Made by a program: the position numbers and the translations under genes. Positions 12,401 to 54,074 of a DNA stretch of 64,000 nucleotides are shown one piece after another. Every line of letters starts with the position of its first letter. The first letter of the stretch is position 1. The notes below the pieces were generated by a model. It was not told the DNA's origin. It did no database searches and saw only the letters and a program-made list of their open reading frames with translations. Source of the DNA: Proteromonas lacertae (lineage: Eukaryota). The DNA is taken from assembly GCA_002245135.1 (NCBI GenBank), contig NGBS01000004.1:124001-188000 (forward strand). The letters are read 5' to 3'.

Positions 12401-15400
12401 ATATCGAATGTTAGAAATAGCAAATGATGCAAATAAATTGAAAATGCGAATAATTATTAGTCCAGCTCCATTAATCTCCACAATTTCCAGTGATAATGGT
12501 TTAGTGATATACAAAGTTCCTCATGATTATAAGTTCGAATTGAATAATGTGATAGGTGGAACGATAGAATTTTCAAGTAAAGGTAATGATGATACTAAAG
12601 ATAACATAGTGAATGAGAAAAGTAGTAATTTCTGGGGATATGATAGTGGTAAGAGAATTAGTTATATGAGTTATGATGATAAAAGTGTGAGTGATATATG
12701 TGTTGATGCATATGAAAATGTTGATGGTTTAATAAAAGTTAAAGAAGCATGTGATGGTTTATATCCATTAGATTTTGATTATAAAATGAATGAAAATGAT
12801 AAACCTGATATATCAGAAATAAAGAAAGATTTTACAAATTATAAAGATTTAATAGTAAATGATTTATCAAGTAAGAAGATTATTTTAAAAGGATTTGGTG
12901 AAATATTTGAATCAATAACAAGTAAATCAAGTAAAGATAATATAAAGATAGAATGTCATCATCCTACAAAGAATGTAGAGAATTTGTTATATGAATATCC
13001 AGGAAAGATCGAATCTGTTGCAGATAGTGTAAGTAATCAAAAAGATTTAGTAATCACATTTACAAGTGATATTACAAGTCATTTATCAGTGGATGATTTA
13101 TGTTATTTGATGTTAGATAAATCTGGTGAAGTAATCAATTTAGGTGTTCCTGTTGTATCTGATAGTTGTGGTAGTTCTGAATTATGTGTAACAACAAGTA
13201 TTTGTGATAAATGTGAAAATTTCAAATATATAATAGATCGAAAACAATGGTTTTATGAAACAGCGACAATGTTATGTGAAGTTGATGATAGTGAAGCTGA
13301 TGCAAGTGATACTACAAAGAAGATTTATAAGATCTCACTTGAAGCCTCATTAAGTCGATTAATAATAAATCATTATATCTCCACAAGTAAAAGTGGAGTA
13401 TCAAAAGGTGAATTAGAAATACCAAAAGGATGTAGTGATGGTAATAAAGATACAGGATTATTTGGAATATTGCGAAAGAGTGGTTCAATAAAAATCGAAA
13501 TATTTGGTTATGGTAGTGATGATTTTAATGATAAAGATGAACATATGATATGGTCTGTAATAGAAAAAGATGGAAGAAAATATGTGACATTACGAGAAGA
13601 GTACAATTTCAATCCAATAAAATATCGAATGTTAGAAATAGCAAATGATGCAAATAAATTGAAAATGCGAATAATCATTAGTCCAGCTCCATTAATCTCC
13701 ACAATTTCCAGTGATAATGGTTTAGTGATATACAAAGTTCCTCATGATTATAAGTTCGAATTGAATAATGTGATAGGTGGAACGATAGAATTTTCAGTAG
13801 TAAAGGTAATGATGATACTAAAGATAACATAGTGAATGAGAAAAGTAGTAATTTCTGGGGATATGATAGTGGTAAGAGAATTAGTTATATGAGTTATGAT
13901 GATAAAAGTGTGAGTGATATATGTGTTGATGCATATGAAAATGTTGATGGTTTAATAAAAGTTAAAGAAGCATGTGATGGTTTATATCCATTAGATTTTG
14001 ATTATAAAATGAATGAAAATGATAAACCTGATATATCAGAAATAAAGAAAGATTTTACAAATTATAAAGATTTAATAGTAAATGATTTATCAAGTAAGAA
14101 GATTATTTTAAAAGGATTTGGTGAAATATTTGAATCAATAACAAGTAAATCAAGTAAAGATAATATAAAGATAGAATGTCATCATCCTACAAAGAATGTA
14201 GAGAATTTGTTATATGAATATCCAGGAAAGATCGAATCTGTTGCAGATAGTGTAAGTAATCAAAAAGATTTAGTAATCACATTTACAAGTGATATTACAA
14301 GTCATTTATCAGTGGATGATTTATGTTATTTGATGTTAGATAAATCTGGTGAAGTAATCAATTTAGGTGTTCCTGTTGTATCTGATAGTTGTGGTAGTTC
14401 TGAATTATGTGTAACAACAAGTATTTGTGATAAATGTGAAAATTTCAAATATATAATAGATCGAAAACAATGGTTTTATGAAACAGCGACAATGTTATGT
14501 GAAGTTGATGATAGTGAAGCTGATGCAAGTGATACTACAAAGAAGATTTATAAGATCTCACTTGAAGCCTCATTAAGTCGATTAATAATAAATCATTATA
14601 TCTCCACAAGTAAAAGTGGAGTATCAAAAGGTGAATTAGAAATACCAAAAGGATGTAGTGATGGTAATAAAGATACAGGATTATTTGGAATATTGCGAAA
14701 GAGTGGTTCAATAAAAATCGAAATATTTGGTTATGGTAGTGATGATTTTAATGATAAAGATGAACATATGATATGGTCTGTAATAGAAAAAGATGGAAGA
14801 AAATATGTGACATTACGAGAAGAGTACAATTTCAATCCAATAAAATATCGAATGTTAGAAATAGCAAATGATGCAAATAAATTGAAAATGCGAATAATCA
14901 TTAGTCCAGCTCCATTAATCTCCACAATTTCCAGTGATAATGGTTTAGTGATATACAAAGTTCCTCATGATTATAAGTTCGAATTGAATAATGTGATAGG
15001 TGGAACGTATAATATTTCAGTAGTAAAGGTAATGATGATACTAAAGATAACATAGTGAATGAGAAAAGTAGTAATTTCTGGGGATATGATAGTGGTAAGA
15101 GAATTAGTTATATGAGTTATGATGATAAAAGTGTGAGTGATATATGTGTTGATGCATATGAAAATGTTGATGGTTTAATAAAAGTTAAAGAAGCATGTGA
15201 TGGTTTATATCCATTAGATTTTGATTATAAAATGAATGAAAATGATAAACCTGATATATCAGAAATAAAGAAAGATTTTACAAATTATAAAGATTTAATA
15301 GTAAATGATTTATCAAGTAAGAAGATTATTTTAAAAGGATTTGGTGAAATATTTGAATCAATAACAAGTAAATCAAGTAAAGATAATATAAAGATAGAAT

Positions 15401-18400
15401 GTCATCATCCTACAAAGAATGTAGAGAATTTGTTATATGAATATCCAGGAAAGATCGAATCTGTTGCAGATAGTGTAAGTAATCAAAAAGATTTAGTAAT
15501 CACATTTACAAGTGATATTACAAGTCATTTATCAGTGGATGATTTATGTTATTTGATGTTAGATAAATCTGGTGAAGTAATCAATTTAGGTGTTCCTGTT
15601 GTATCTGATAGTTGTGGTAGTTCTGAATTATGTGTAACAACAAGTATTTGTGATAAATGTGAAAATTTCAAATATATAATAGATCGAAAACAATGGTTTT
15701 ATGAAACAGCGACAATGTTATGTGAAGTTGATGATAGTGAAGCTGATGCAAGTGATACTACAAAGAAGATTTATAAGATCTCACTTGAAGCCTCATTAAG
15801 TCGATTAATAATAAATCATTATATCTCCACAAGTAAAAGTGGAGTATCAAAAGGTGAATTAGAAATACCAAAAGGATGTAGTGATGGTAATAAAGATACA
15901 GGATTATTTGGAATATTGCGAAAGAGTGGTTCAATAAAAATCGAAATATTTGGTTATGGTAGTGATGATTTTAATGATAAAGATGAACATATGATATGGT
16001 CTGTAATAGAAAAAGATGGAAGAAAATATGTGACATTACGAGAAGAGTACAATTTCAATCCAATAAAATATCGAATGTTAGAAATAGCAAATGATGCAAA
16101 TAAATTGAAAATGCGAATAATCATTAGTCCAGCTCCATTAATCTCCACAATTTCCAGTGATAATGGTTTAGTGATATACAAAGTTCCTCATGATTATAAG
16201 TTCGAATTGAATAATGTGATAGGTGGCAGTATAATATTCAGTAGTAAAGGTAATGATGATACTAAAGATAACATAGTGAATGAGAAAAGTAGTAATTTCT
16301 GGGGATATGATAGTGGTAAGAGAATTAGTTATATGAGTTATGATGATAAAAGTGTGAGTGATATATGTGTTGATGCATATGAAAATGTTGATGGTTTAAT
16401 AAAAGTTAAAGAAGCATGTGATGGTTTATATCCATTAGATTTTGATTATAAAATGAATGAAAATGATAAACCTGATATATCAGAAATAAAGAAAGATTTT
16501 ACAAATTATAAAGATTTAATAGTAAATGATTTATCAAGTAAGAAGATTATTTTAAAAGGATTTGGTGAAATATTTGAATCAATAACAAGTAAATCAAGTA
16601 AAGATAATATAAAGATAGAATGTCATCATCCTACAAAGAATGTAGAGAATTTGTTATATGAATATCCAGGAAAGATCGAATCTGTTGCAGATAGTGTAAG
16701 TAATCAAAAAGATTTAGTAATCACATTTACAAGTGATATTACAAGTCATTTATCAGTGGATGATTTATGTTATTTGATGTTAGATAAATCTGGTGAAGTA
16801 ATCAATTTAGGTGTTCCTGTTGTATCTGATAGTTGTGGTAGTTCTGAATTATGTGTAACAACAAGTATTTGTGATAAATGTGAAAATTTCAAATATATAA
16901 TAGATCGAAAACAATGGTTTTATGAAACAGCGACAATGTTATGTGAAGTTGATGATAGTGAAGCTGATGCAAGTGATACTACAAAGAAGATTTATAAGAT
17001 CTCACTTGAAGCCTCATTAAGTCGATTAATAATAAATCATTATATCTCCACAAGTAAAAGTGGAGTATCAAAAGGTGAATTAGAAATACCAAAAGGATGT
17101 AGTGATGGTAATAAAGATACAGGATTATTTGGAATATTGCGAAAGAGTGGTTCAATAAAAATCGAAATATTTGGTTATGGTAGTGATGATTTTAATGATA
17201 AAGATGAACATATGATATGGTCTGTAATAGAAAAAGATGGAAGAAAATATGTGACATTACGAGAAGAGTACAATTTCAATCCAATAAAATATCGAATGTT
17301 AGAAATAGCAAATGATGCAAATAAATTGAAAATGCGAATAATCATTAGTCCAGCTCCATTAATCTCCACAATTTCCAGTGATAATGGTTTAGTGATATAC
17401 AAAGTTCCTCATGATTATAAGTTCGAATTGAATAATGTGATAGGTGGCAGTATAATATTCAGTAGTAAAGGTAATGATGATACTAAAGATAACATAGTGA
17501 ATGAGAAAAGTAGTAATTTCTGGGGATATGATAGTGGTAAGAGAATTAGTTATATGAGTTATGATGATAAAAGTGTGAGTGATATATGTGTTGATGCATA
17601 TGAAAATGTTGATGGTTTAATAAAAGTTAAAGAAGCATGTGATGGTTTATATCCATTAGATTTTGATTATAAAATGAATGAAAATGATAAACCTGATATA
17701 TCAGAAATAAAGAAAGATTTTACAAATTATAAAGATTTAATAGTAAATGATTTATCAAGTAAGAAGATTATTTTAAAAGGATTTGGTGAAATTGTTAGAG
17801 CAAATGGATGGAAATATGATTCAACTGTTACTTTAAGTATTGAATGTTACCATAATGATACAGACAATTATTTTAGTAACATTACTGAATATGATGCTGA
17901 AGTTACTGCATCTAAAGAAGGTTTTGTAATTACTATTACAGATACAGTTCCAGTATCATTAAAGAAAAATGATATTTGTCATTTAATGGCTGATAGAGAA
18001 GGTAATTCATATTCATTACAAAAAGTCAATCCTGTTGTTGTAGTCGATAAAGATAAAGAAAAATATGAATGTGATATATGTAAAGAATTATTTTATGATT
18101 CTATAAGAGTTAAGTTCTATGTTAAAGAGATATACTTTAACAGAGTAGAAGGAATAACAGTGGATGATAAAAATAGATATGAAAATTATACATCTGTTTT
18201 AGGAATAAGTATTATAGAGAATGTGATTGATGATTATGTTGAAAATGCTCAATATCCATTACTAAAACCAACAAATGGTGGATTTCAGACTTATAATGGT
18301 TATGTATTAAAGAATAATATATTAGTTGTCAATTTAAGTATACCCTTAGAAGCAGATAATACAATTGATATTCCAGTTTATTATGAAGTGGCAAAGATTA

Positions 18401-20953
18401 ATGATGTTATAACACCTACTAATTATGAAAACTTTACATTAGATATTTATCCTCCTTTAGTTCAATTAAAATCAAAATATGAAGAGAATAAAGGGAATGA
18501 TTATTTAAAATTAACTCATACTGTGCTTGAAAATTCAGTATGTGATAAAAACACATTAATATGCAGACATATATTATTGGATTTGAATTTACCAAAAGAA
18601 GGTGGATATGTAAGAGTATTAAATGATAAAAATGATGTTGTTGTTGTAGGTAATGTTCTTTCGTACAGATCTAATTATCCTCAAGTTGCTATTATAAAAT
18701 ATGACAAAGATATTTGGTTTGATGAGAGATTTGATTGTTTTAGTTATACATATCAAGTAATTTCACAAAGAAATGATCTATCAATGTATGAATCATCAAT
18801 AGTTGAGAATAATAAAATAGTGTGGAAGGATACTGGTTCTGCAATAGATTTGATGGGATTAAATGGAAAAGAAGTGAAAATAATTTGCGTTTCAACATCT
18901 TCTAATAAAACTACTACACATAAAGTAACAATCTCAACTATTGGGAATGACACAGAATTTAGTTTTAATGGAGATAATAATAAGCCTGAAAATAAGGCAA
19001 CTTGCAATGTATTAGCAAATAGTGAAAAAGATATAGAAGTAGAAAGAACAATCAGAATCTGCTCCATTATTCACTGTAGACGAAAATGGAGAGAATGTAT
19101 TTAAAGAAGTAAAAAAGGATGATTTAGAATATGATGTATTAATCAAACAATTGAATAACATTGACACTAATAGTGATAATGAAAAAGAAAGTGTTGCAGT
19201 TCCAGTTATAACAGGTGGTGAAACATATTACAACAAAATAGTTCAATATTATAATGAAATTGATAATGAAGAATCAGAAGGAAAAGAAGATGAAGTTATT
19301 ACAAAGAATTTTGCTATTCCAATTGTAACTGAAAGGAAAGATGTTATAATGAATGATGCTGTAGAAGATAGTGTATTAACAGTTGAAATTATAGAAGGTA
19401 GAAAAAGCTTGTTTAAGAGTGTTGTGGTGATAACTGAAGTTGTTGGAAATGAAGGTGGATTTATACTTGTCAAAACTAACCCAGAAATTGATTATCTAGA
19501 AATAACAAGAAATAGAAATTTAAAAGGTGGTGAAGAAAGTAAAAGAATAATTATCACTATTACTCCATCAGTTCCAAAACCAGAGGGAAAAGATAAAAAT
19601 ACAGATATTGAGTCTGGTGAAGGATTGTTTAATGTAATTGGAGGTAAAATGTATTGTACTAGTTTAAATTCAAGTAATAAAGGAATTGTTAATGTTATAT
19701 ATTATAAGGGAGAAGAAGTTATTTCTCTATATGATTTTGATACAAATGAAAAAGACAAACAAGAGAAGTTGGAATGTAGTGTGATTAGTAAGAGAAATGA
19801 TTTATCACTTTATAGTGAATCAGTTGTTGAAAAAGATAATAAAATTACTTGGAAGTATTATGCTGAAGCTGTGAAATTGTTAATTGAGACTAAAAATATA
19901 TTGAATAATGAAAGATTTCCTTTTATTTGTTATAATCCTAAAGGTAATTACAAATTAAACCAATATTATAGTGTAGTAGAGGATATAAAATCAGCAAATG
20001 ATATAACATTTAAGATTCGAGATGTAAGTGATGATATGACTGGATTTGTGTGTTATTGTAATGCAAAGATAGATGGTGACAATATTAAAGAAATAACTGA
20101 TTGGGGTATAATGGATGCTTCCAAATACTTTGAAGAGAAAGATGATGAATGGTATTTTAAAATAGTAACTGAAGCAGGATCAGAAGGATTTGTAACAGAA
20201 AATGGACCAGAAATATTATTAGGAAGTGAATCAACAGATAACTTTATTAGCAGATATGAAACTAGTAAAGAATTATTAATACAACTATCTAATGATCAAG
20301 CAGGTGCATTATTTAAGTTATATGCTGTTCCAGGATCTTATATACAAATTGAAATATCTGGTGAAGAGTTGAAATTAAGTCAAATTGCAAGTAGTATCTA
20401 TGATAAAGAAAGCAACACTATAACAATTAGAACAATGCTTGATTTAAAATTAAATTTCCCAAAAGGAAGAATGAGAAGAAATCTTGACAATAGTAATTCA
20501 ATAATAAGAATCACAATAAGAAATGATATGGAAAATACTCATTCACCTGTTGAATGTAGTGGACAAGGTATATGTGACAGAGAGACAGGAAAATGTAATT
20601 GTTTTGATGGATTTAGTGGATATACATGTCAAAGAGCTTTTTGTATGAATAATTGTAATGGTAATGGAAGATGTGTTCCATTGAAGGAGTTATTATCAAA
20701 TGATGATTTAATAAAATATGAAGGATTTGGTAATGATGAGAATGTGTATGGTTGTAAGTGTGATAAAGGAAGAAGAGGACCAGATTGTAGTTTGATTGAA
20801 TGTCCATCAGGTATTGATCCATTGAAAGCAGAAGGAGATGAAGAAAAGAGAGATTGTAGTGGAAGAGGTGTATGTGATTATACCACAGGAATTTGTGATT
20901 GTTTTGATGGATTTACTGGTGAAGGATGTCAAATTAGAAGAGAGTTTAGTTAA
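9500..20953 (+). CDS. Giant secreted EGF-repeat protein of the stramenopile mastigoneme (Sig1/Ocm1/Mas) type with a ~3,600-aa insertion; three apparent frameshifts
   Basis: Signal peptide, then CPNNCSGHGRCG...DCSVLMCPLG (intron 9693-9720). C-terminus reads HSPVECSGQGICDRETGKCNCFDGFSG...GCKCDKGRRGPDCSLIECPSGIDPL...DCSGRGVCDYTTGICDCFDGFTG. Frames break near 13797, 15010 and 19044. Confidence 0.75.
10380..17791 (+). repeat. Coding tandem repeat, 1,221-bp (407-aa) unit, six full copies plus a ~80-bp partial copy
   Basis: AAGAAAGATTTTACAAATTAT recurs at 10380, 11601, 12822, 14045, 15268, 16489 and 17710. Copies are almost identical, and copies 3 and 4 are 1,223 bp. Confidence 0.98.
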
Positions 20954-24362: not shown

Positions 24363-25920
24363 CTATTTATGATTTCTTTTTGATTCACCACTTTTCACTT
24401 TCTTTAAATACTGTTGTAATACTCTCAACCTTTCTTCAACATTACTTTCATCATCACTATCATCAATATAATTCTGTTTCATCTTTTGCACATGAACTTC
24501 ACCATCACTTAAATCTATATCACTCTTCATTCTATCATCATTATTATTACTTTTCTTTCTATTCCTTCTACTTACAGTTTCATCAATTATTCTATCATTA
24601 TTATTATCATCATCTGAGGAAGATAAATAACCTGTTGTTGGTTTATTCTTCATATAAATCACTTTCTTAGGTGATAAATGTTTAGATATTGATGGACTTC
24701 TGGATACTGATCTTTTAGAAGCTTTTGATGAAGAAACTGAAGTTGTTTTCTTTCGATTATTGGAGGGAGATGGTGATAAATGACGATTTTTATTGTTCAC
24801 CACTTTTTTATCTATATATTTAATATAATAATAATAATTATTCTTATTATACGTGTAGGTGTGTTAGATCTTGATGATATTGGAGTAACACTTCGACTGC
24901 TATTACTTTTATTTCTTATTCTATTAGTTGGAGTAGGACTTCTGGAAGTTACTCTTTTCTTCATTGTTGTTGATGATGATGATGTAGTTGATTTATTATG
25001 ATATTTATTATTTGGAGTTATAGATCTTGTTTTAGATACACTATTATTGGATGATTGACTTGTAATTGATGTTCTTCTTTTTTGTTCATTATTCATTGAT
25101 TTTGAGGGAGTTTTCTTCCTTATTATTGTTTTTGATTTAGTTTTATCGGGTAATTTTATTGATTTTAAATATTCTATTTCTTTTTTCAATTCTTCATTCT
25201 CTCTTAAAGCTGTAATGAGTTTTTCAGAATTTATTTTCTTTTCTTCTTTGATTTTAGCTATTAATTCTCTCATTTTACTTCTTTCTGATTGTATTTCACT
25301 CTCTAATCGTCTTATTTGCATTTGATATTGATGGATTTCATGAAATGGATAGTCATTTGGTCCAATTTCTGCTTTATATTCACTTAATTCTGCTCTAAGT
25401 CTATTAATTGTCCTTTGCAGCATTTCTATTGTAGGATTAATAACGAAGTATAATGGAAGTGGATAATGAACCATATCGAATTCTACACTATATGTCACTA
25501 TTAAATATCGTTTATTATCTGATTGAGATGTTGTTATTGAGTTATATAAATTTCTATGCCTATTTCTGAGCGTTTCTAGATCTGATGGCGTTAAAAGATC
25601 AACAAACACAGATCCACTCTTGCTAGTTAACGCTGATAATAACATTTTTACAAATGTTGAGAATCTTTTATAATTTCCTGTTTTACGAGTGATGTTTTCC
25701 AAAGCTATTCAAAAATAAATGTAAAATAAGATACCATCACCTGTAAATACTCCTCCCCATCTTTTTTCTCCATCGCTAGTTTCACAGTCAATACACAACT
25801 TGTTATCTTCATCAACTGAAACTTCAATACAATATGATATTCTAAGAATATAAATACTTAATAATACCCATGAAATATCATTTGAAATGATTTTTCGAAT
25901 GGTTCAATAACTGCAGTCAT
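24363..25920 (-). CDS. CCDC61: CCDC61/VFL3 basal-body protein (SAS-6-like head, coiled coil, basic tail)
   Basis: LENITRKTGNYKRFSTFVKML, VFVDLLTPSDLETLR and KRYLIVTYSVEFDMVHYPLPL are the CCDC61 signature blocks. Three short introns. Confidence 0.92.
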
Positions 25921-30370: not shown

Positions 30371-33300
30371 TTATACAAAGTATTTATTAAATGCTTCTTC
30401 AAAAGCATTTGTTTCTTCTTTTGTATTGAAGATTATTGTGAATCTACTACCTTTTTTCGGTATTACTTCAACTGTAAAACTTAATCTCTTCATTTTTGAT
30501 TCAACTAATGATATATTCACATATTTTTCACCACAGAAACCAGGTTGAAAGTAAGCTATTGATGTATCAGTACAGAATAATATTCTAGCTTTTGAAGAAT
30601 TATTTTTATCCATTATCCTTGCAGTAAATCCATCAGTGTTAAAAACATTAAACAATGGAATTGAATTCTATTAAAGATATACATATAGATATACAATTAC
30701 AGATTGTGGTAATCTTGCTTCTACAGATACTGCTGAATTTTGCTTTGATTCTTTTTGTTTCTCTTCTTCCAGTTGCTTTTTAAGAAGTGTTTCTTTTTCT
30801 AAATCATTTTTAAGTATTTCATATTTCTCATGTAATTCACATAATTCTTTTTCCATTTCTTTAATTTTCTTGTTCTTCTCTGCCAAGTCAATTTCATATT
30901 TTTTACTATTACTATCATTTTCAGCTATGGGTGGTGGTGGTGGAGTTGCAACATTGCCTATTTTGTTATACTTATTTTCTTTATTATTTAGCTTTTCATT
31001 CAATTCATCAATTTTGGATTGAGCATCTATCAATTCTGCTTTTAATTTTATTACAGCTGTGTCAGTATTCGTTATTTTCCTGCTAAACAATTTTTCATCT
31101 TGACCCATTAACTTTAACTTTTTATTCATTTCCATATTCTCACCTAAACAACAATACAATTGTTTTCTTAATAATTCTATCTCCTCATTTTCTTCTTTTG
31201 TATTACCATTTGTTTTAATTGCTACTTTTTCTAACTTACTATTACTAAAATACAGAAATGATTGACGATATAATATATCAGCATCTAATCTTAATAATCT
31301 ACTATTAATTACAGGGTATTGTTCTTTAATCATTTCACCATTTACTGGTTTATTAGTATAAATATCAATTGATATTGGTCCTTCAAATGGATCAAATGTT
31401 GATGGAACAAAGAAATATTTACCTTTTGGAATAATAGCTACTTCAGAGATTAATGGTAGTTCTGTCCAAAAATAACATCCATTTATTTTAAAAATTGATT
31501 TTGGATATTGCTTCAGTTGTTCTTTTGGTGATTTTCTCTTCTTTTCATTTTTATATAAATCAACATTTACACATACTTTTTCTGTTGGATTAAAAACCAT
31601 TACTAATTCAGTATTATCTTCTTCAAATGTAATTGGTATTCTATAAAAGATAATTAATTAATGTTTAATACATTGGATTATCATCATAATGATGATGATT
31701 GTTACATCCTGCTGCTGTTCCATCACTTTTTGACCATTTTCCATCATAATGATAATGCAAATAACCTTCTCCTAATTCTGGACATCTTTTCACAGTTAAT
31801 TTATCTGGAGATTGAATAGTGAAAGTGAAAGGACCATGTGTTGTTTGTTTATATACTAAACATTCTGCTATATAATTACCAGGAGTTAAATTACTTTGAA
31901 TAATTTTGGATGAAAATGAAAAACAACTTGGTGATTCAATTACTGAACATTTATTATCCTGATAATCAAAATATCTTCCATCACTTCTATATAATAGCAG
32001 CATTACTTGATCATCACAAGTTGTGTTTAAATACAAATAAAGTGGAGTTGTTTTTGTAACAGTAATTAGATATTGTGGAGAAACAGTATGATGATTATAT
32101 CCTTTATTATTTGCTTCTGTCCATTCATCATGAATATCAAGATTAAACCAATCTGTGATTTGAGTAATGGTGAATAATGAAGATCCGCGAAATACTATAC
32201 TCATTGAAGAAGTACTATAATTTCTATTATCACAATAAAAACAAAAATAATACTCTGCAAATGATGGAACTAAAGTGTATTTACTTTTTTTTAATGTCAC
32301 TGATGATGTAGTATTGCTTTTACCTAATATTCTTCCAGATATCATTCTCTCTCCAATACTGAATAAATGATCTCCATTACTCTCATATAATTGAAATTCA
32401 GATATACCATCTACAGTTTCGCAACTACAAACTAAATCACATGATTCTTCTAAAATATCAATACACCATTGATCATTTGATGGTTTATCATGACTATTTT
32501 ATTCATAATCAAAACAATTTATACTATTCAATATTTCCAAATGTATTTCTTATTCTTTTTCCATCTTTTAATAAAATTAGAGATTGTCTTGTTAAATCTA
32601 CCTTATCATATGATATTGGTTTTGTTGACCACATTGAAAATGAATAAGATTTCATTACTTTCTTATGAATAGTAAAATAAAGATTAAGGATTATAATAGA
32701 AATAAATAATCCAAAAAGATATCAATGTAAAACAAGTGAATATTGTCCTGGTTGTAGATTAGCACAATATGAATAGATGGAATGAACACTGGCAATATTT
32801 TCACATTGAGTTTCAGATAAAACACTATTTCCTTTTGAATCAAATACATAGATGAAATATGAAAATGAATCATTTGATTTTAGAAGCAATCTGGTTGTTT
32901 CTTTCACTGTTAATTTGTATTGAGGTAATTGAGTATAAAATCCTTGAATCAAATATTCTCCTCCATCTTTTACTACTCCTTTGATATTATATTCAATGAA
33001 TTTCTCCTCACATTTTGTTGATGATATTTCAAGTGATATTGGAGATTCTAATCTTACATCGATTTTACATGGTTTGTTATTGTTTATTAAATATGGAACA
33101 AATCTATATTCTCCTTTTTCTACATCAATTTCACAAACATTTTCATTGAATTGAGCAGCCATTTGAGAAACTGTTTTACTATCACTATCACAATATATTC
33201 TATTTTCTCCTTTAAATAATGAACCACCAACTCTTTCATTTTCACATTTCAAATAAATGAACAACTTTGTATTTTGTGGAATTACTATTTTCAATTGAGG

Positions 33301-35551
33301 TAACATATAGAATAATTGTTCCATTGGATTATAATCTGTAATCCAATCGAAACTTACTTTAGAATTATATGTAAATCTTTCCATCGCTAAAGGTCCATGA
33401 GATATCTTCATATTCTTTGAGAATATCTATAATATAATATATAAAACAATAAAATATACTCTAATTGTCATTGGAACTGGATATATATTATTATCTTTTA
33501 AATACGACACAATTACAAACTTTGATGGTTTATCAATGATTTGCCTATTTCCCCATACTTTCATCATATAATAAGTTCGATTCTATTACACCATTAGTAA
33601 TAATATGTTAATATACCATTGATGAAGGTTCATCCATTAGTCTTTTACAATTTTCACCTGTAACATCTAAGAAGTATATTCTATTAAGGAGAAAATTTAA
33701 AAATCATTTATAGAAAGATATATCATTAAAAACATAGATATTTGAATCACTTTCATCTTTACTATGCCTTTCAAACTCAAAGTATACTTCTCCTACTCCT
33801 TTTGTTGGAGTTACTTCAAATGTATATTGATGTCTGAAATATACTTGTCTTGGAACTAGTCCTGGTAATAAAATGTGATGACTTCCATTAAATGGGTATA
33901 TTTCTTCATGATATGCTATATTTCTATTGAAATTATAATATTTAGAAAAATACATTCCATTACATTCAGGTAATACATCTTTCAACAAAAACCAAGAAGC
34001 ATTTACACTACAAAAACAATCTGCTGATTCTCGATTATATCCAATATACTATAACAATAATTCAATTATATAATATCAATACTTTTTGATGTTTTTCATC
34101 CCATATATTATTATCAATATACCAAGGTCCTTTAATGCCATGAGCATTCCCAACTAGAATCCATTTCTCTTTGTTATATTCTCGATACTAATAAAAGAAT
34201 AGAATGAATATGATAACATACAGCTAAAATAGCATATGCATGATGATGAACAATTGGTAATTTTCCTTGATCACAGACTGAAAGTGTTGATATTATATGT
34301 CCATTACTATATAAAGTGTATAATTCATTCCATATTTTATCTAAATTATTCAACAATTCTTTTGAACTATATGATCTAGTAGCACAACCAGTAAAACAGG
34401 ATAATTCACAACTGAAATAAGAACCTGTATAAAACACTTTCATTATTGCTTTTTCTAATAAACTAACCCACAATTCAGTCTGCAATAATGATTGAGCTAT
34501 AATAACACCAGAACACTCTTTACTTGTCAATTGATAATCATCGACTAGTACACTTCTAAAACATCCATTGATATATATTTTAATAACATACTTACCATAA
34601 GGATTGTAAATTGGCCAACCATCTTTGTTTTGAGGATATATCATATTCTTCAAATAGGTTGTTCCATATAATGCCATATGATTAGTGATTGCCATTACTG
34701 GTGCAATATTAGAACAATCTCCCATTTCCATTTGTTTTACTGATGGTGATAAAAAGTCTCTTACTACTTCAGGAATAACATCATAAAACTCATTTGGTCT
34801 TCTCCATACACCTTTTCCTACTAAGTCTTTTATTTTGTTATAATCAAAATCATCTCTGAAATATTCTTCATCTGTATCAAATCTTGTATTATATAATTCA
34901 TACTCACTAAATGGATTAACTGCAACTTCACCAATTCTTGAAGAATCTTTCAATATTTTGGTTTGTTCATTTTCTTCATCAGGTTTGAAAATAAAGTTAT
35001 CTTCTTTTGGATAAGATTTTAACAACTGGTCAATATCATTTAAATACTTCTTTTTATCTTCTTTTTCTTTTGATGACAATTTTTCTGAAGATTTAAATAA
35101 TGCTTTGGCATTATCTAACAGTCTTCTTGCTTCCGTATTTTTACCAACAGATCTTAAAGTTTGAGCGTATTCTAAACAGAATTTACCCTTCAGATAGTTT
35201 ATTGGAGTAGCGAATGTTTTAATCGAAGACATTGGGTAACGATACTAAATTTAGACCATTTAAAATACCTGATTAAATTGTTCATTCGCTTTATCATCAA
35301 TTAACTGTATCATCTTTAATATTTCTGAAATGCGCTTAATATTTCTTTCATAGCTATAGATCAATATAAATATGAGTTTACTTTGAGATTTTAGGAGAGG
35401 AAGTCAAAACATAATAACCATATAAAGCCTGGAAGTATAAACTTCTGGCATATAACCACAACTTCTCATTTTCTTTCTCTTTACCCTAAAGAATCCTTTA
35501 ATAGATCAGAAATACTTTTTTAATAAGCTGTTCTACATCCTGTATTTTCAT
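30371..35551 (-). CDS. Calpain-7/PalB-like cysteine protease: MIT-like N-terminus, CysPc, multiple domain-III repeats, coiled coil, PH-like C-terminus
   Basis: KQMEMGDCS (Cys), HHHAYAIL (His), LVGNAHG (Asn), YNPYGKYVIKIYINGCFRSVLVDD and ELWVSLLEKA. Repeated PQY...GxYxxVP units. About 13 introns, including two AT-AC. Confidence 0.85.
32672..32722 (-). other. U12-type AT-AC intron (51 nt) in the calpain gene
   Basis: Minus strand reads ATATCTTTTTGG...ATCCTTAATCTTTATTTTAC. Removal turns the apparent TGA stop into TGT and gives YSLVLHCIHKKVMKSYSFSMWS in frame. Confidence 0.88.
33674..33721 (-). other. U12-type AT-AC intron (48 nt) in the calpain gene
   Basis: Minus strand reads ATATCTTTCT...TTTTCTCCTTAATAGAATATAC. 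Removal gives YVFND|FLDVTGENCKRL in frame, whereas using the internal AG leads to a stop. Confidence 0.88.
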
Positions 35552-42753: not shown

Positions 42754-45700
42754 CTAAACATCATTATTTAAAGAAGCATCTTCAGCAATCATAGGTATAT
42801 TGTTAGCCTCATAACGGACATATTGGAATTGTTGCATTCCACTAGCAGAAGGACGAGTAAATTTACTAAAACCTGATTTATCATTAAATCTTGTTACTTC
42901 AGTCTCAATTACATTTCTTGTAGCTTCAAGTTCAGGGCTAGTTATAGGTGGAGGAGCAGGTGTAACTTTATTATCATTATTTGGAATATTCATCGGGCTT
43001 GACTTCTTTCTCCCAGTTCTACCAGATTTAGATGTAGCTTTACTATTCTGATGTAATACATAAATAGCCCAAACTTTTGGTAAAATCATAACAGAACAAA
43101 CTACAAACAATGTTGCAGAAATACCACCTAATTCTAAGAATAATAACGCATCTGGCTCTTCATAGACTAATATTTCAACAACAATAATTAACACTTCACA
43201 TGCAAACTCTGATCCAATTGATGTTGCTAAACTTCTTGATTCATTAAAATCATCTGTTAGAGTTCTAGTAGTCCAAGAGAAATAAACTCCAACACAAAGA
43301 AGAATTGTATTAACTGCAAATTCAAAAATGACATAAACAGAGTTAAAAATACATCTATTACTAACATATGTTTGAATATAAGTAGTTTTAGCTAAATATT
43401 TTGGCTCTTCATATCCTACAAATGGATCTATTAAACCCCATATTATTATAATAATTGCATGAACTAAAGCTATAATAAATATCCTCACAAATATTTGAGA
43501 ATCAGTTACTGATATTTTTTTCAATTGTTTGTTAGTCAAAAATGCATGAACTCTCCACACTTTCAATACTAAACCAGAAGTAAACATAATCACAGATTGG
43601 AATAATAAACCATACAATAATGTGCAATCTATTTCTGAAAATGTTTCAAATCTAACACATGTTGATATAATTATTGTTATAATTCCCATAACATTAATAA
43701 ATTGTAAGAAATAAGGACTTGTAAACTTGATTGTCTTTACTTTTCTATTTTTGAAAATAAAGAACATATATGATAACAAAATAGCAATGATTAATGAAAC
43801 TAATGTCAATAATGCTATTCTCAATTCTGGTCGATATTTATACATTTCTTTTGGCGTAGACATATCACATTTACCATTACCTTGTGAATTTGGAATTATT
43901 GGATCTAAGGTTGCTACAAGTTGAGGACAAACTCTGCTTAATGATCCATCATCTAATATAACTGATACAGATGTTGGTGTGATAAATGAATTATATTCTG
44001 AACCTTCCAATTTTCCAAATGGCGTTTCAAAATCTAATCTCTGTGTAGCAGTTCTTAAATAATCAAAAAGTGGCCAATCACTTCCAATATTATCATTGTT
44101 CATTCCATCTAAAGCTAATTGAACAGCTGATACAAAACCATTAAATAGAGTATAAGTATTTGCTAATGATAATGTAGCTTTTGAACTTAATCTGTTTGAT
44201 ATATACGATTGAAATGATAATGAATTTGCTACTGTATCATCATTAATGAATGGTCTCAAAATTAAGCTTCCTGATATATATGATAAATCCTGTTTAGTAA
44301 AGAAAGATTCTTGATAAAATGCTAAAATTAATTGATTTCTAACTCCTTTTAAGTCATATAAGGTGTAATAAGCAACAAATTCAACTAAATCATCATTTGC
44401 AAATGCACAAAATATTGCATAATTAGAATCGCCAATTTTCATTATATCATGAACAAAACCATCTATAAATTCATGCATTTTATCCTCATCTACATCTCCT
44501 ATTCTATATTCATATGTGGTAATATTATATTTCTTGCTAAAAGTGTTAATCATATTACCTATAGTCTTATTAAGATATGAATTCTTCATTACTTTACCAA
44601 TTATATACAGTCTATCTAAATGTGAAATATTCATATAACTATAAACAACTGGTAGTTTCTGTAGAACAGTTTGCTGTAATTGAAATACATGAGAATCACA
44701 AATATCGTTTTCTGGTAAAGATATAGATGTGAATAACATAATATCATGTTTTGCTAACTCTGGCATTACTAAATTATAAGAATATTTTGAGCTACATCCA
44801 AATAATGCTACTAAATCATCATTATGTAACAACTTTCTTATAGAACCTTCATCTTTATTCTTAATTTCTTCTCTTTTATTATTCAGGTTTACTACTTCTA
44901 GTAATAATGCATAACCATTGAATGAATTCAGTTGATTATAATCATATAATAATTGCTGAATTAGTAACACATCCATTTGTGAAATATATCTATAACTATC
45001 ACTAAAATCAGCTATATAACCAATAATTTTAGTTTTCAAGATTTCTGTTGAATTTGATTGACTAATATTACATATATATTGAGGATTATAGACAGCTTGA
45101 GCATTTGATAATGAACTATAATGATAAACATTAAACAATCTATCTTCTGTTATTCTTGCAGAAAACGTTCTTCTTGTTAATGTATTATCAATTCCTAAAT
45201 AAACTGTACCAGATGGACTTTCATATTCTCGATTATTCAATAACGCTGATACTTTATCAGGTTCAAATGATGACGTTTTCATCACAGCTGTTAGCCATAT
45301 CTTAAAACCAATATATAATCCTTCAGTTCTATAATTTGTTGTGAAAAACCCTGCTGTTCTTGTATTTAATATTGTTGGATAGTTTTTATCTGCATTTATA
45401 ATAAACTCATATTTAGTATTAACTAAACCACTGAAATAAGTTGCCATTACTGTTACATTCCTAATCATATATCTATTTTCAATGAAATCATTTTCTGTTA
45501 AGAAGAATGTATACATATCTATTCCATTACCATATCTAAAACCAATATCATATAAATCGATATAAGCTTGTAAATTATAACTTGCTAAGCAAAAAACAAT
45601 TATACAATGATCAATATCACAATAACTCTTCATAGCCAATAATTTTTTCTTATAATCATTAGCATCATAACCAATTGATTCAAAATGCAAACCAACACCT

Positions 45701-48700
45701 GAAAAAAGTGTAGTAAATTGATTTATTAAACTCATTGATATTTCACTAGAATCACCCAATAGATAAATATATCTGTCTTCATCAATTAATTCCATATACA
45801 CATTATAGACTAATGACATTTGATCAACTCCTGCAAGTATTACATTCTTTAAACAATAATTCTGAGAATAATATCCAGGATAGAAATACAACAAATTTGT
45901 ATCTTTCAAATATGGAATAGAAATAGAGAATTTCTGTGGATCATAACCTGAAAATAATACTACCACATTTGGATTATCAATGATACTTTTCAGATATTTT
46001 ATATGTAAATTATCATCACCTTTATCATCATATACTAAGGGTATTAAAAAGTAAGATAATTGTCCATTATTCGCTTCTTCAATAAGCATTAATAATGTTA
46101 ATAACATTGAAAGTGTATTTGTGTTTATTGCAGCTAAGAAAGCAACAACTGCTACTTCTAATTCATGTTTTTCATTGGATGTTACATTACATACTGTAAA
46201 ATAACTCTTCTCTCCTGAAATTGGACTTGTCTTATTAAATCCATTATCCTGTAAGTATGTAAATGGTGAATTATATTCATATCTTAATACTACTGTTGTT
46301 ATATCTTCTGAATCGACTATTCTTCTTAATTTGAAAATAGGCTTAGATCTTATATAATTATCATATCCAACATCGAAATTACCCAAATTATCAAAGTAAT
46401 GTTGCGAATATAACAATTTATTCATTTCTGACATTTTGAATGTTTTATATCTATTTATTATAGTAATCCATGCAGATAATAATCTAAATAAAGATGATGA
46501 ATAATCAGGAATAATATTAAAATCAACAATATTCTTTATTGCATCATCGATATAGCTTAAGTATAAATCTTCAGGATCTGACAGTGTTACATAGTAAAAT
46601 GGAGAAAAATCATATAGTTTATCTATCGAAATGAATGAAAAATAAGCTTTAATTAATTCTCTTAAGTTTATCCAATTGTTATTATTGTTATTTAAATAAT
46701 TCATCACCTTTTTATTTAAATCAATAGCTAAATAAAATTCTTCACCTCTGTTATATAAATCAACTAATACTTCATCTAAATAAGTTATGTTTTCAACAAT
46801 GAAAAACTGATAATTAGACATTCCATAACTAGTAAAACAATCTCTAGCCATTCTATAAGCATATTCATTTTCTTTAGATGCTAAAAACACAACTTTACCT
46901 GTATGAGCTACAGATATAAGTAACTGTGCTTCATAATTTATATATCTAGACCAGACTAAACCATGAGATATCATCTTTTTACTACATCTAAATTCCTCAT
47001 TATAATGAACAGCAAATATCATTGTGTCTTTTAAATCACTAAAAGTCTTAGATTCTTCAATCATATCTTTACACTCTGTACTTACTACCATAAATACAGC
47101 TGCAATATTTCTATAATTTGATGATTTATAATTATTAACAAAATTTTGACATGTATTAGTCGAATCAATTCCATAATAAGTTGGTGCAATTAGGTATGTA
47201 TCATTAATTATGGTATATTCTGAGTTCAATAACTTCAAAAAATAATAGAACTGAACTTTCAATGATTTATCTAATGAAGTATCATAAATTAACTGTATGA
47301 TAATTTGTCTTGATTGTAGAGTAGTCTGTTTATGATCCTTGTGAGATACAATACAAATACTTGCATTAGGATATGCCAAAATCCATGTTTCAGGTTTAAG
47401 TGAAAACTTATGTTCAACTATATAATCTATTTCATTATTATATATATAACCTAATCTGAATGATTTATATAAATAATTATTGTCAGCTATATTTGTTCTT
47501 CCAAAGGGAGTATCAATATCAGTATATTGTAAATAAGTAAAGATTTCAATTGGATCAAAAGAATTACTCAACGTTATTCCATCATGAAGTATTTTTACAG
47601 CTGTATATGAATTTGCCATTACATTTGAACTTCTATTAATTGCTAAATATTGATATAAAGATTTTTTCAAATTCTCATTAACAACTATTTTATCATGGTA
47701 ATTATAATCACTTATAAAATACAAATAATTTGTATATTTCTTATCTAATTGTAATAAATCAATCTCCTTAGCCAATAATATATAAACTTTCTTTGTTGCT
47801 GGTTCAGTTGGTGAATTATAAACAGTATAAAGGAATTTTTCCATTGAATATGTTTCTATACCAGGTATAAAAACCAAGGCACAATGATCATTACTATACT
47901 TTACAATAGTAGAAAATAGATCTTTAGTATTATTGAAATATAGTTTGAAAATATCATTACCAAATCCTGATGAATTACACATATACTGTAAATTCTCTAC
48001 AATATAATTCAAATACACATATTCAGCTTCATATATTATATGCATGCAAGTATCAGTATTATTCATTTCAAAATATACTAAGAGGAATTGCAAATACTGA
48101 TTCGGGACAATACTAGTGAAAAGAACATGTTCATCACAAATTGTACCACTAAGTATATATGGAACTAATAAATATTGATTATTCTCTCTTAAAGCAGGTA
48201 TTGCTTTCTTTATACATTTATTACTATCACCTCCTATTATAAATTGAATTCCCAATTCATTAAAATAATTCATTGCTTCATAACAATCTGGATTTTCTGG
48301 TGCATATAATTCATAACCTATTGTATATCCATTAATTATTTTATTTTGGAATAATTCTATAATGCCAGCTATTGCACCTTCTGCCATTGAATCTAATGAT
48401 GAATATGTACTTAAACTAGAAGCTAAAATACCAAATTTATATGTTTTAGATTGTTTACCACAATCACAAACCAATTGTTCTCTTGGTGATTTTGGGAAAT
48501 TCAAATAAAAAATAGGAGAGGCAAAATGAAGAATATATTTACCTTTACTTATATACTCATATAAATACATATAATGTGGGAATGTTGGACATTTGGTTAA
48601 TGTAATAATCTCTCCTGTTGGTAAAGGTAGTTGCATTCCATTATACTTTTTCATTGATATAAAATCTACAATATCATAGTTACTATCAGTAGCATAATGT

Positions 48701-51700
48701 AACATTTTAACAGATAAATAACTGTAATAGAAGAATGGATTTATATCCATTTCATTATTATATAAATCACTATGTAAATCTAACAACTTCAACGCTTCAT
48801 CAGATAGATTGTCTAAAGCAAATGGAGTTGCTATCATGTGAGTATATATATCACTATGTTTAATATTTGCATTTTTAAATAAACCAACTCCACCATCACT
48901 AACAATAGTAAAATGGATTTGACTTTTACACTGCTCAGCTAAAGCATTAAATAACTTATTATATTCGAAATTATCAAGAGCATTTATCAATACAGAATCA
49001 TCAGTGATTAATTCGCATATTCTGCTTGCTATTGGGTTGAAATCTATTGAATCTCTAGAAACAACTTTGAATTTAAATGATATCTTTGCATGCTTATATT
49101 CTAATTCAGCAGTTATAGCTTCAACTAATTTATGTGAATAAACACTGTCATTATATATAATTCCATATGATCCACTATTATTATTATTTATCAAATATGA
49201 AACTAAAGTCAAAAGAAAAGACGACATAGTCCAATGGAATGAAAAAATGTAATTATTAGCTGTTCTATCTTCAACATTTGTTCCAATATAAAACAATACT
49301 TTTTTCAATGATTTTAATTTTTCAGCAAAGAACATTATAACTGGTTCTCCTAATCCAATTATCATTTTAGATTTCTTAAACCATTCATCATTAACAAAAT
49401 CGCCTGATTCGAAATCATAATGAAATAATCTGTAATATGGTTTTATTATTTTCCCACTAATACCTTCATGCTTATTATTAATCTCATCAATTGCAATATA
49501 AACACCAGATTCTAAAGCAACTCTTACATTAACATCTTCTATTGAACAAAACACAGCAATATTATAATAGTCTTTTATTTCTATTACAGGATTATCTGGA
49601 TCTTCATAGTTACATATTTTATCAAAAATAATATTCTCCTGCAATTCAGAACTATTTCTGTCATATGTGTATATAGTAGTTAAATTATAATACGAATGTC
49701 TGTACAATATATTGAAAGCAGCAGATATAACAAATTCTTTATTAATCGAACAATGACCAGATGGTAAATCATATGTATCAATCAAATTCTTTCTGATTGG
49801 TTCAACTTCAAATGTATTATAACGATTTGTAACATCATAAAAAGCAACAATACTATTGGCTAATCCACTTTCTAAAAATGTAACTTGTGTTTGAATTGAA
49901 TAATAATAATTATAAATATTTGCCAACACTTTACTACTTTCAGTTGATCTTGAATAATCATTTGTTACTATACCATATGTATTATCGTATATTTCATTCT
50001 TATTTCCAATAAAATTCTCAGTAAATGAAAAGTAAATCTTGTATTTACTCCTTTTGTTTTTGTTAATATATTTATTATAAACTTCAATAAACAATTTATG
50101 CTCAACAGGAATAGTGATAACTAAAATACTACCTCCATTTGGCAATTTAATCAAAACATCTTTCATAAACTGATTATAAAACGCTTCAGTATTATTAGAT
50201 TCATATTTGTATAACTCTATTGAATAAGCAACTGTTGCTGATTCTATTGTATCTGCTATTTTAACAGATTGTTTTGAATATAACAAAACACAATCTTCTC
50301 TTGAACTCCATATTGGTGATTTTAAAATACCATTTACTAACGTTTCTATTGAAAATCCATTCACAACATATGAACTACAACCATCTGCATAAATTGGAAT
50401 ACCAAATGACCATAATAAAAACTTCTTTTTCTCTTCCACTAATTTCATTAATTTCAGTGTTTTTTCATCGCTTATAAATGTAAATACATGTTTTATATTA
50501 TGATTAATGTAATATTGAACTATATCTTCTATAGATGTAGTTTCTTCATCCTGTAATAATGGAACATAATAAACAGCACATCTACCAATTTCATACAAAT
50601 ATTCAGATAAAAAATGAATTAATCTTTTCATTTGGTAAGATATTCTATTATATCTTGGACTTGTTGATACTATTAGACCAATATTTTCAACTGCATCTTT
50701 TCTATCAAACAAACGAGAAGCTTCATCTGTACACATGTGAGTATCATTCACCATGATTAAAGGATTCTGTGGAATTGCTTTATCTGTTAATATTTTTATT
50801 TTTGTATCACCATCATTCATTCTAAACACATACAATGGATATTGAAGTTGATTAGATAATGAGAATTTTAAATCACCAATTACAGAATCTAATACCATCA
50901 ACTGATGAATAATATAATCTTCTGGAAGTTCACTTCCTAATGATTTTACACCCATGTAACTATAAGCTTTAAATATATTACTCATTACTACAACATCATA
51001 AATTGGATACTTCGAAAAAACATCATAATATGGTAATAATTTCATCATATTCTGTTTTACACTATCTAATTCATGAACGGGCAAAACTGTAACCACAGTG
51101 TATGTGTAATTGCTATAACCATCTTCATCTAATAGATATGAAGTTCTTGCATTTACATTAACAATTACATACTTCTTTATATCACTAAACTGTTTAAATA
51201 AAGTACTGTTATGTATTTTCACTAACTCTTCATCATTAAGATTCAAATAAACAACTAAACTATCAATAATACTACTTTCTTTATTAATCAAATCTTGTAA
51301 TATATCATCAACACTCATTCGTCGAGTAAAATATATAAGGGGAGTAATTGGATCAGCACAATATTTTTCAATAGTTCCTTTAAAATATTCAGCAACATTG
51401 TCATCATTAGGAATAGTACTTGAAACATATGCAAAATAATTAAATCCTTTTTGAAAGAAATCAAATAATGTTGTAGTAAAAAACTGTTTGGTTAAACAAC
51501 CAAAATGATAAACATGTGGATTACAGTCATTCCCATCCCAAGGACTTATGGAATAAAACATTCCTTTAAACTCCTCTAAAACAGGATTCAATGAATTTAA
51601 TATCGATTTATTATGATATCCTATAACAAATCCAATTCTATGTTCTTCGAAATAATGTCGAACAATCTCTATGGAGTTGTTTAAATTAGTACTTTCCAAA

Positions 51701-54074
51701 CTAACTGGAACACTTTCATATTCTATATCAGTAGACTTTTCTTCAGCATATGCAGTAATAAACATGGAATATAATGCATCATAATAAGGATGTTTATCAT
51801 TATTTACTAACGATATTATATGATATACATCTTTATTCACTATATATCCGTTATTTGCATTCTCACTATTATATTCACATATATCAATTTGTTTATTAGT
51901 GGCTAAAAATGGTTTTTGAGATCTAGTTAATGATACATCCGATATTTTCCATATAGCTCCACTATTAGTAGAAGGATCAATTGTTACAGCTGATTTTAAT
52001 GTATAAATTGAATATAATTGTTTATTAAACCTAACACGAATATCAGAACCTTGTGAATATGAAAATGATGAAGGTAATATCTGAAATTCTAATAACGAAC
52101 TTGATTGGATACTTTTATAAAAATTCAAAATCATTGACAATGCAATATAACCTTGAGATTCTATCTGATGATAATATTGATATAAAAAGGAAGTTCTCCA
52201 TGCTGTGGGTTGGTATAAATGGAATTGAACTGTTGAATAACCTTCCCATTTAATACCAGATTTACTTGCTGATAAATAATCTTGATAACTAAAATCTATC
52301 ATAAAAACATTATCAGATGTGTATGATTTAGTTTCATAATATTTCATGAAATTGTTCTTATTAATATCAGCCATCAGTGTGATTATAGTTAGATTCTTAT
52401 CTAATATTTCTAATTCATATTTATCAAGTCTTTGTTTATAAAAATTAACATCGTTACTCTCATCAACATATATAATTTCTCTACAATTCTTTCCATAACT
52501 TCTACAACTATATTCACATGCTGATTTACCATATTCACCATTTAAACACACTAATACAAAACCTCTTTTTAGTTTTGGTGTAACATAATAACTTATCTGT
52601 GACATTGGTGTTAATGATACATGAAATACATGAGGATTACAATACTGTCCTGTCTCATAACCAATTGCAAATATATATGGAGATAAAACTTTATTTTCTA
52701 ATATTCTACTCAACAATTTCTTTCCATAATACATTATCACTATTTCTATATTTTTCGATATTATATCTTCATATTGTGCATCTATTGTATCACCAACTGC
52801 TTTATATAATAACATCTTTGCATCAAAATGATGTGAATTCTGCAATAATGTGTCTAACGATTGTAATAAACTGTTAAAGAAATCAGGATAACTTTCTCCT
52901 TCAATATATCCTATTCTTAGAACTGGCATTTCTTCTATAAAACCTACTTTACATGTATATAAATCAAATTCCTTTAAATCATAAAATGGTTCTCCTTGTA
53001 TATTGGTCAATAACAATGTAAAATGTGCAAAATTACCACTCAATACTTGTGCTATATATACATTACGTTGCAAATTTAAATTGTATTGAAGTATAATTTT
53101 ACCATATGAATAAATCAACTCCAAATCATCAATGTAAGGTATTAGATAAACCTCACCAAGTGTTTCATATTCTGTAGCTTCATTTAACTTTCTAATTAAT
53201 TCAAGAAACAATATTCTATATAAATAAATAAATAAATAATATATATACGTAGAATATTCTGCATCTGTTATTACTTCACTTGGATTAGATGTCAATACAT
53301 CATTTAAACCTAGATTATCGATAAACGAAGATGTTGCTGGATTATCAAAGAAATAACCAGACATTACATATATATTCTCCATTATAGCATTATTAGCTTT
53401 AAGGAAACGTTCATCTACATTTGCTACACACAACATTACCTTATGTTTTAAATAAATATTACTTGATGAATAAGCTTTGATTGAATTTAGAAGTATTGCA
53501 TCATCACCATAAAAATTTACAATAAAAATCCTTTCAGACACTTCTAAAGATGTAAAAAGCTCTGTAAATCCAACTTCATTTGTAGGAAATTTATGAGAAA
53601 TTACAGTGAATGATAATCTCTCTGCTAAATTTGCTGTTACATTATATTTGCATGAATTTTTCTCTGCCAAGATCAAGACTTTATGGAAACCATCTTGAAA
53701 AAATGTGATTAAAGCTATAATATAAAATTTATATAAATACTTTGTTTTATAGGTTGCTGTATAAGACCACCTCTAACAATATTTGTAGTACAACCCATAC
53801 AAGCAGAAAAGGATGGATAGAAGTATATAGATTTATCATCATAAAACGGGTCTAATGGGGATCCTCTTTCACTATCTGAATATATTGACGTTAACTCTAA
53901 AGGTTGATGATGATTAAAATAGAAAATTTCATTTCTAAGCTTTGCATTACTGATGTACGACTTTAGAATCACATTTGGGGATGAATCTGTGTAAATATCT
54001 GAGTAAATATATATTTTGGGGGTAAAACTCCAAACTGATTTAAATATAATAAGAAAAATCAAAAAATAACACAT
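42754..54074 (-). CDS. Class C (GABA-B-like, 7tm_3) GPCR-like receptor with ~9 tandem type-1 periplasmic-binding domains
   Basis: Signal peptide MCYFLIFLIIFKSVWS. The 7TM region has IKFTSPYFL, LVLKVWRVHAFL, IWGLIDP and DDFNESRSLATSI. Repeats carry YFYPGYYSQNYCLKNVILAG and ESPSGTVYL-type motifs. Two short introns. Upstream ATG 54134 is an alternative start. Confidence 0.85.

What the first reader, a model, noticed from the sequence alone, without database searches (positions are those of the whole stretch)
32672..33721. Two very short AT-AC minor-spliceosome introns in one calpain gene
Seen: two places where the reading frame is repaired exactly by removing a 48-51 nt segment that starts ATATCTTT, contains TCCTTAAT about 10-13 nt from the end, and ends AC. 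Established: this matches the U12 consensus (RTATCCTTT donor, TTCCTTRAY branch), here with a C-to-T donor variant. Inference: the organism has a working minor spliceosome acting on unusually compact introns. A GT-AG-only gene finder would truncate this gene.
Basis: partly seen in the sequence, partly recalled or inferred. Interest (0 to 1): 0.85.

Follow-up and report, generated by a model that had tools for sequence, protein, structure and literature searches.

The report
Two minor-class introns in protist calpain
A calpain-7-like protease gene of a flagellated protist, probably a relative of the gut microbe Blastocystis, is interrupted twice by 48- and 51-base AT-AC segments that are likely removed by the rare minor splicing machinery; short AT-AC introns are already known from Blastocystis, and only a one-letter change in the start signal may be new.

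Summary
Observation confirmed. On the minus strand, 33721-33674 (48 nt, phase 0) and 32722-32672 (51 nt, phase 2) start ATATCTTT, hold TCCTTAAT and end AC. They are the window's only two such matches (mean 0.047 in 300 shuffles). Removing them with eight short GT-AG introns opens about 1559 codons of a calpain-7-like gene. Protein fragments from unnamed relatives support both donors. Three of 3 agree up to the first donor, read I-S-F, then diverge. Fourteen of 15 stop exactly at the second donor; the 15th reads W-Y-L-F, as a GT version of the same donor would. For intron 2 the AT-AC join ranks first of 39 against a calpain-7 profile; for intron 1 the profile is indecisive. No RNA, genome or snRNA could be examined, so splicing and the machinery are inferred. 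The host is a stramenopile with flagellar dynein and 27% GC, probably Proteromonas-like. Its likely relative Blastocystis has hundreds of shorter, mostly AT-AC minor introns, so neither compactness nor two per gene is new. Possibly new: both donors have T at +6, seen in about 1% of AT-type donors in mammals and Blastocystis.

The parts
33674..33721 (-). AT-AC intron 1, 48 nt, phase 0, in the first C2-like (domain III) repeat; donor ATATCTTT at 33721, branch motif TCCTTAAT at 33690-33683
   Evidence: donor kept in P0312, P0313, P0326; only AC end that keeps the frame open with this donor
32672..32722 (-). AT-AC intron 2, 51 nt, phase 2, in the third C2-like repeat; donor ATATCTTT at 32722, branch motif TCCTTAAT at 32690-32683
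   Evidence: gap-free register with other repeats; rank 1 of 39; 14 of 15 relatives stop here, 1 reads as a GT donor
30371..35403 (-). Host gene model: calpain-7/PalB-like protease, about 1559 codons from the first open stretch (true 5' end unresolved): helical N-terminal part, catalytic domain, about six C2-like repeats, coiled-coil-like tail
   Evidence: Pfam Peptidase_C2 E 5.3e-16; calpain-7 hits; 77-sequence profile E 6.4e-89; open frame
34177..35244 (-). Open frame holding most of the catalytic domain with the candidate catalytic Cys and His; the candidate Asn is in the next exon
35245..35268 (-). GT-AG intron, 24 nt (predicted)
34188..34221 (-). GT-AG intron, 34 nt (predicted; relatives diverge at the same donor)
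34049..34082 (-). GT-AG intron, 34 nt (predicted)
33583..33616 (-). GT-AG intron, 34 nt (predicted)
33427..33459 (-). GT-AG intron, 33 nt (predicted)
32494..32524 (-). GT-AG intron, 31 nt (predicted)
31641..31671 (-). GT-AG intron, 31 nt (predicted)
30668..30700 (-). GT-AG intron, 33 nt (or 27 nt from 30694; predicted)

Best explanation
The two segments start ATATCTTT, hold TCCTTAAT and end AC at frame breaks of a calpain-7-like gene, and are likely U12-type introns that a minor spliceosome would remove in a probably Proteromonas-like stramenopile. Shown: motifs, positions, frame repair, and donor conservation as read through relatives' protein fragments. Inferred from established knowledge (PMC3584512, passages): the U11/U12 di-snRNP binds donor and branch site together, the 48K protein reads the first three intron bases, U12 pairs with the branch motif around a bulged A, and the AC 11-14 nt downstream is joined. 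Inferred from recalled snRNA sequences, not tested: C-to-T at donor +6 and at the last branch-motif base would turn G-C pairs into G-U wobbles, so AT mutation pressure could fix them without any snRNA change. The other eight introns are ordinary short GT-AG introns.
For: Only 2 strict matches in the window, 0 of 300 shuffles reach 2. Intron 1: P0312 (91% identical) and P0313/P0326 (61%) match the exon to its last codon, read I-S-F, the translation of an ATATC[CT]TT[CT] donor, then diverge and stop; every GT or GC donor upstream lies in exon sequence that these relatives conserve, and no GT or GC lies between the donor and the stop. Intron 2: 14 of 15 fragments in three clusters (86, 82, 58% identical) end at the same His, as TG+A gives a stop; P0324 reads W-Y-L-F, the translation of TG+GTATCTTT, the AT/GT subtype switch known for U12 introns (PMC2831892). 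Control of the read-through method: the GT-AG intron at 34221 shows the same agree-then-diverge pattern. Blastocystis ST1 has 346 U12 introns, all four minor snRNAs and seven minor-specific proteins (PMC5608401).
Against: No spliced read, snRNA or U11/U12 protein of this organism was seen. For intron 1 the family profile is indecisive (rank 14 of 34, 24.0 bits, best GT-AG join 23.9), so its acceptor rests on the branch motif and frame; eight non-AC ends with the same donor also keep the frame open. A small 11-segment profile ranked intron 2's join 391 of 1928. Both donors miss the consensus at +6. The relatives' DNA was not seen; 12 of the 15 belong to one 90% cluster; for P0309, P0311 and P0325 a TA-split codon with a GT donor would also give a stop; P0324 is one short contig and may be an error. 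Host placement is inferred from best hits and GC, without a tree.
Confidence: 0.86

Rival explanations
1. The AT-AC boundaries are right but the major spliceosome removes them (U2-type AT-AC, or orphan minor-like introns after loss of the minor machinery).
For: Candidate major donors here mostly begin GTAT (46 of 76 rows), close to the U12 donor; intron 2 has G at -1; no minor snRNA was seen.
Against: Known U2-type AT-AC introns have G at +5 (PMC2831892); these have C. TCCTTAA[CT] occurs 3 times in the window, twice in these introns, the third in dynein coding sequence. The likely relative Blastocystis keeps the whole minor machinery.
Confidence: 0.08
2. Nearby GT-AG, GC-AG or GA-AG pairs are the real junctions and the U12-like motifs are incidental.
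For: In-frame GT-AG joins exist at both sites (for example 33762-33667, 33750-33667, 32733-32662); a GA-AG join 32723-32658 is in frame and GA-AG introns occur in Blastocystis; the profile does not separate the joins at site 1.
Against: The upstream GT donors lie in codons conserved in relatives at 58-61% identity. At site 2 all such joins score 7.5 bits or more lower. Under the GA model P0324 would need a GG donor.
Confidence: 0.04
3. The gene is a pseudogene or mis-assembled and the segments are not introns.
For: The window shows at least one likely one-base assembly error, in the dynein gene near 62500.
Against: Inserts of 48 and 51 nt with donor, branch motif and AC are not indel errors; relatives break at the same codons; the frame is open for 1559 codons.
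Confidence: 0.02

Closest known systems
Blastocystis ST1/ST7 U12-type introns (PMC5608401; PMC10639083)
   Same: Likely related lineage; AT-AC subtype (77% of 253 there); very short but longer than the roughly 30-nt major introns; several per gene occur (346 introns in 319 genes; adjacent AT-AC introns OAO18147_7 and _8).
   Different: 48-51 nt here against a median of 39 nt; donor ATATCTTT in 2 of 2 here, whereas table entries start ATATCC 336 times and ATATCT 3 times (file cut when stored); host has flagellar dynein, which Blastocystis has nearly all lost.
Human and mouse AT-AC U12-type introns (PMC6717393 supplement 1; PMC3584512)
   Same: AT..AC ends, RTATC donor core, TCCTTAA[CT] branch motif near the 3' end; TCCTTAAT occurs 99 times in the table.
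   Different: ATATCTTT occurs 4 times against 302 for ATATCCTT. Capn7 has 0 hits in 8 supplement files; the calpain genes listed there carry a GT-type minor intron, by inference in the EF-hand part shared with CAPNS1, which this model lacks.
Physarum polycephalum transformed minor introns (bioRxiv 10.1101/2020.10.12.336362)
   Same: Donor class written RTATCYTT, so T at +6 is common in at least one lineage.
   Different: Physarum has a TTTGA branch motif with a matching U12 change and over 20,000 minor introns; here the branch motif is the classic one.
Calpain-7 / PalB proteases (for example Hondaea fermentalgiana calpain-7, P0145)
   Same: Catalytic domain followed by C2-like repeats; profile match E 6.4e-89.
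   Different: About six C2-like repeats and a long tail; about 30% identity.

Membership tests
U12-type (minor) intron | Extended conserved donor RTATCCTT | tested here: met
   7 of 8 positions in both; the +6 T form occurs in listed U12 introns; donor kept in relatives
U12-type (minor) intron | Branch motif TCCTTRAY close to the 3' end | tested here: met
   TCCTTAAT in both, A's at -11 to -14
U12-type (minor) intron | AT-AC or GT-AG termini | tested here: met
   AT..AC in both; acceptor of intron 2 supported by profile, of intron 1 by frame and branch motif only
U12-type (minor) intron | Removed from the mRNA at these junctions | not testable with these tools
   No run was listed to lay on the locus
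U12-type (minor) intron | U11, U12, U4atac, U6atac and U11/U12-specific proteins in the genome; splicing depends on them | not testable with these tools
   No genome held; 0 Rfam matches in the 64 kb window, which says little
U12-type (minor) intron | Position shared with minor introns of distant eukaryotes (typical, not required) | tested here: inconclusive
   Shared with unnamed close relatives only; Capn7 absent from the mammalian list; none of 16 distant loci covered these domains usefully
U2-type AT-AC intron (sodium-channel kind) | G at donor +5 | tested here: not met
   C at +5 in both (feature from PMC2831892)
Calpain-7/PalB family | Calpain catalytic domain with Cys-His-Asn followed by C2-like domains | tested here: met
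   activity untested

The most novel reading that the evidence does not exclude
This flagellated lineage runs a minor spliceosome whose donor consensus has shifted from ATATCCTT to ATATCTTT genome-wide, perhaps with a matching change in U11 or U6atac, and is rich in recently gained minor introns: two firm and two weaker AT-type candidates in 64 kb, none with C at +6, at positions not listed for mammalian calpain-7. With Blastocystis it would give a test pair for minor-intron gain and for co-evolution of splice signal and snRNA.
Probability: 0.25. Interest if true: 0.62.

Novelty: new member of a known kind. Interest (0 to 1): 0.33.

Why it matters
It would extend the minor spliceosome from Blastocystis to a flagellated relative, so retention predates Blastocystis, and it warns that GT-AG-only annotation of this genome breaks or mis-splices such genes. 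The compact size is expected for the lineage. The open point is the +6 T donor: at the roughly 1% rates of mammals and Blastocystis, 2 of 2 would have a chance near 1e-4, which hints at a lineage shift. The sample is two introns of one gene in a genome of 27% GC.

Tried and rejected
Whole genome: none held. Sequencing runs for 30600-35500: none was listed, so no reads were laid; this is no evidence on expression. Rfam scan of the window: 0 matches. A profile from 11 ungapped 42-residue segments did not discriminate (true join 391 of 1928). The 77-sequence profile did not discriminate at site 1. Scan of JGI metagenome contigs: 16 loci, all distant calpains matched mainly in the catalytic domain; 1 of 16 had a loose 312-nt U12-like pattern, not followed. 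The third TCCTTAAT (62855) is dynein coding sequence. An AT-type intron at 30680 was rejected in favour of the GT-AG intron 30700-30668. Origin of both introns by repeat duplication was rejected: different repeats, positions and phases, 24 of 48 identity on an AT-rich background. Junction direct repeats: best 12-mer match 8 of 12 at both. Earlier scan notes on this genome: none. The supplement of PMC8287931, which covers snRNA promoters of Proteromonas, could not be read, and supplements of the Physarum preprint were not seen; either may bear on the snRNA and +6 questions.

Full report
Observation. The gene lies on the minus strand. TCCTTAAT ... AC. Of 33 RTATC[CT]TT sites on both strands of the window, only these two have a CCTTRAY motif within 140 nt downstream. 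In 300 block-wise dinucleotide shuffles the strict pattern averaged 0.047 and never reached 2; a looser one averaged 0.30 and reached 2 in 9 of 300. The pattern was defined after the fact.

Host gene. Removing the two AT-AC segments and eight GT-AG introns of 24-34 nt gives an open frame of 1559 codons from 35403 to the stop at 30371; the 5' end is unresolved. Retaining intron 1 or 2 stops it at codon 535 or 824. Pfam finds Peptidase_C2, named hits are calpain-7, and a profile from 77 homologs (74 of the 150 listed, those of 600-1150 aa, plus P0001-P0003) matches at E 6.4e-89 and aligns across both junctions. About six C2-like repeats follow the catalytic domain.

Are the junctions right? Site 2: the 51-nt removal puts the last two strands of repeat 3 in gap-free register with other repeats and calpain-7 domains. 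A smaller profile was uninformative (391 of 1928). Site 1: the profile does not decide (14 of 34). With the 33721 donor, 33674 is the only AC end of nine ends that keep the frame open, and no GA-AG join does.

Relatives. Searches returned exon-sized protein fragments from unnamed Logan contigs. Called without splicing, they run into the intron and so report its first bases. Control: at the GT-AG intron 34221, 4 of 4 closest fragments agree up to the donor and then diverge. Intron 1: 3 of 3 fragments (two clusters, 91% and 61% identical) match to the exon end, read I-S-F and then diverge; a GT donor would give V. Intron 2: 14 of 15 fragments (clusters of 1, 12 and 2; 86, 82, 58%) end at the same His. 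The 15th, P0324, continues W-Y-L-F, which is what TG+GTATCTTT gives; C at +6 would give W-Y-P. So that cluster has TG at the split codon, its other 11 members likely have A at +1, one has G, and +6 T is shared. AT/GT switching at one position is a known property of U12 introns (PMC2831892, passages). Limits: DNA unseen, sequences not independent, P0324 single.

Organism. All 21 hits with an organism name among the best 120 to the dynein heavy chain are stramenopiles, one annotated as a flagellar outer-arm chain. GC is 27.4% and candidate major introns are mostly GTAT..TAG of 24-45 nt (76 rows, 37 printed, about 33 distinct sites). A published table gives 27.0% GC for Proteromonas lacertae, a flagellated close relative of Blastocystis, and says Blastocystis lost nearly all flagellar genes (PMC12129017, passages). 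A Proteromonas-like opalinate is therefore my inference; no tree was built.

Mechanism. By established knowledge (PMC3584512, passages) donor and branch sequence, not the termini, define U12 introns; U11/U12 bind both together and 48K reads the first three bases. Both deviations here are C-to-T. From recalled snRNA sequences these would leave G-U wobbles; this was not tested. The machinery could not be looked for.

Comparison. Blastocystis ST1 has 346 U12 introns in 319 genes and the full minor machinery (PMC5608401: passages, S1 Table whole, searches of S11 Data, which was cut when stored); 77% of 253 are AT-AC, with median 39 nt, the shortest in a survey of over 3000 genomes (PMC10639083: passages and a supplement search). 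Compact AT-AC introns and two in one gene are thus known. The difference is +6: ATATCT starts 3 entries against 336 for ATATCC in the Blastocystis table, and ATATCTTT occurs 4 times against 302 in the human/mouse table (PMC6717393, supplement searches only). Physarum uses RTATCYTT (bioRxiv 10.1101/2020.10.12.336362, passages), so the variant is not without precedent. Capn7 is absent from the mammalian list.

In print? Searches for Proteromonas + spliceosom (6 papers, 3 listed), minor spliceosome + Opalinata (0) and U12-type introns + Blastocystis (4), and look-ups in PMC10639083, PMC11347168, PMC5953543 and PMC8287931 (passages) showed no report of minor introns in Proteromonas. The Proteromonas genome paper was not among the 10 of 14 listed and may cover it.

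Verdict. Real feature, likely U12-type (0.86), a new member of a known kind. Interest 0.33, carried by the lineage extension, the natural AT/GT variant and the possible +6 shift.

Noticed in passing
window 4670-4735 (+): Third candidate AT-AC intron, 66 nt (ATATCATT ... TCTTTAAT ... AC), in a CCCH zinc-finger gene; it joins frames of 211 and 111 codons and no GT-AG or GC-AG join was found in the range tried. The downstream frame could be a separate gene.
   Followed up: partly
window 5020-5081 (+): Candidate AT-AA intron, 62 nt (ATATCTTT donor, TTCTTAAT branch-like motif), in the same gene; GT-AG rivals of 59-176 nt exist.
   Followed up: partly
P0324 (cluster of P0310): A relative whose read-through implies a GT donor at the position of intron 2: possible subtype switch, conversion to major type, or error.
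   Followed up: partly
window about 62500 (-): One-base frame break at an A-run in the dynein heavy-chain gene, likely an assembly error.
   Followed up: partly
window 42754-53772 (-): 3672-codon frame with periplasmic-binding-protein domains and a 7tm_3 domain, a giant class C GPCR-like receptor.
   Followed up: no
window 9651-20953 (+): Very large gene with units recurring about every 1221 nt, several frame breaks and EGF-like domains near the end; surface-protein-like.
   Followed up: no
whole window: CCTTRAY is depleted: 8 observed against a mean of 27 in shuffles, 300 of 300 shuffles at or above the observed count; stop-codon avoidance may explain part of it.
   Followed up: no
window 25705-25734 (-): A 30-nt candidate major intron begins GTATCTT without the branch motif, so major and minor donors overlap in this lineage and type conversion may be easy.
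   Followed up: no
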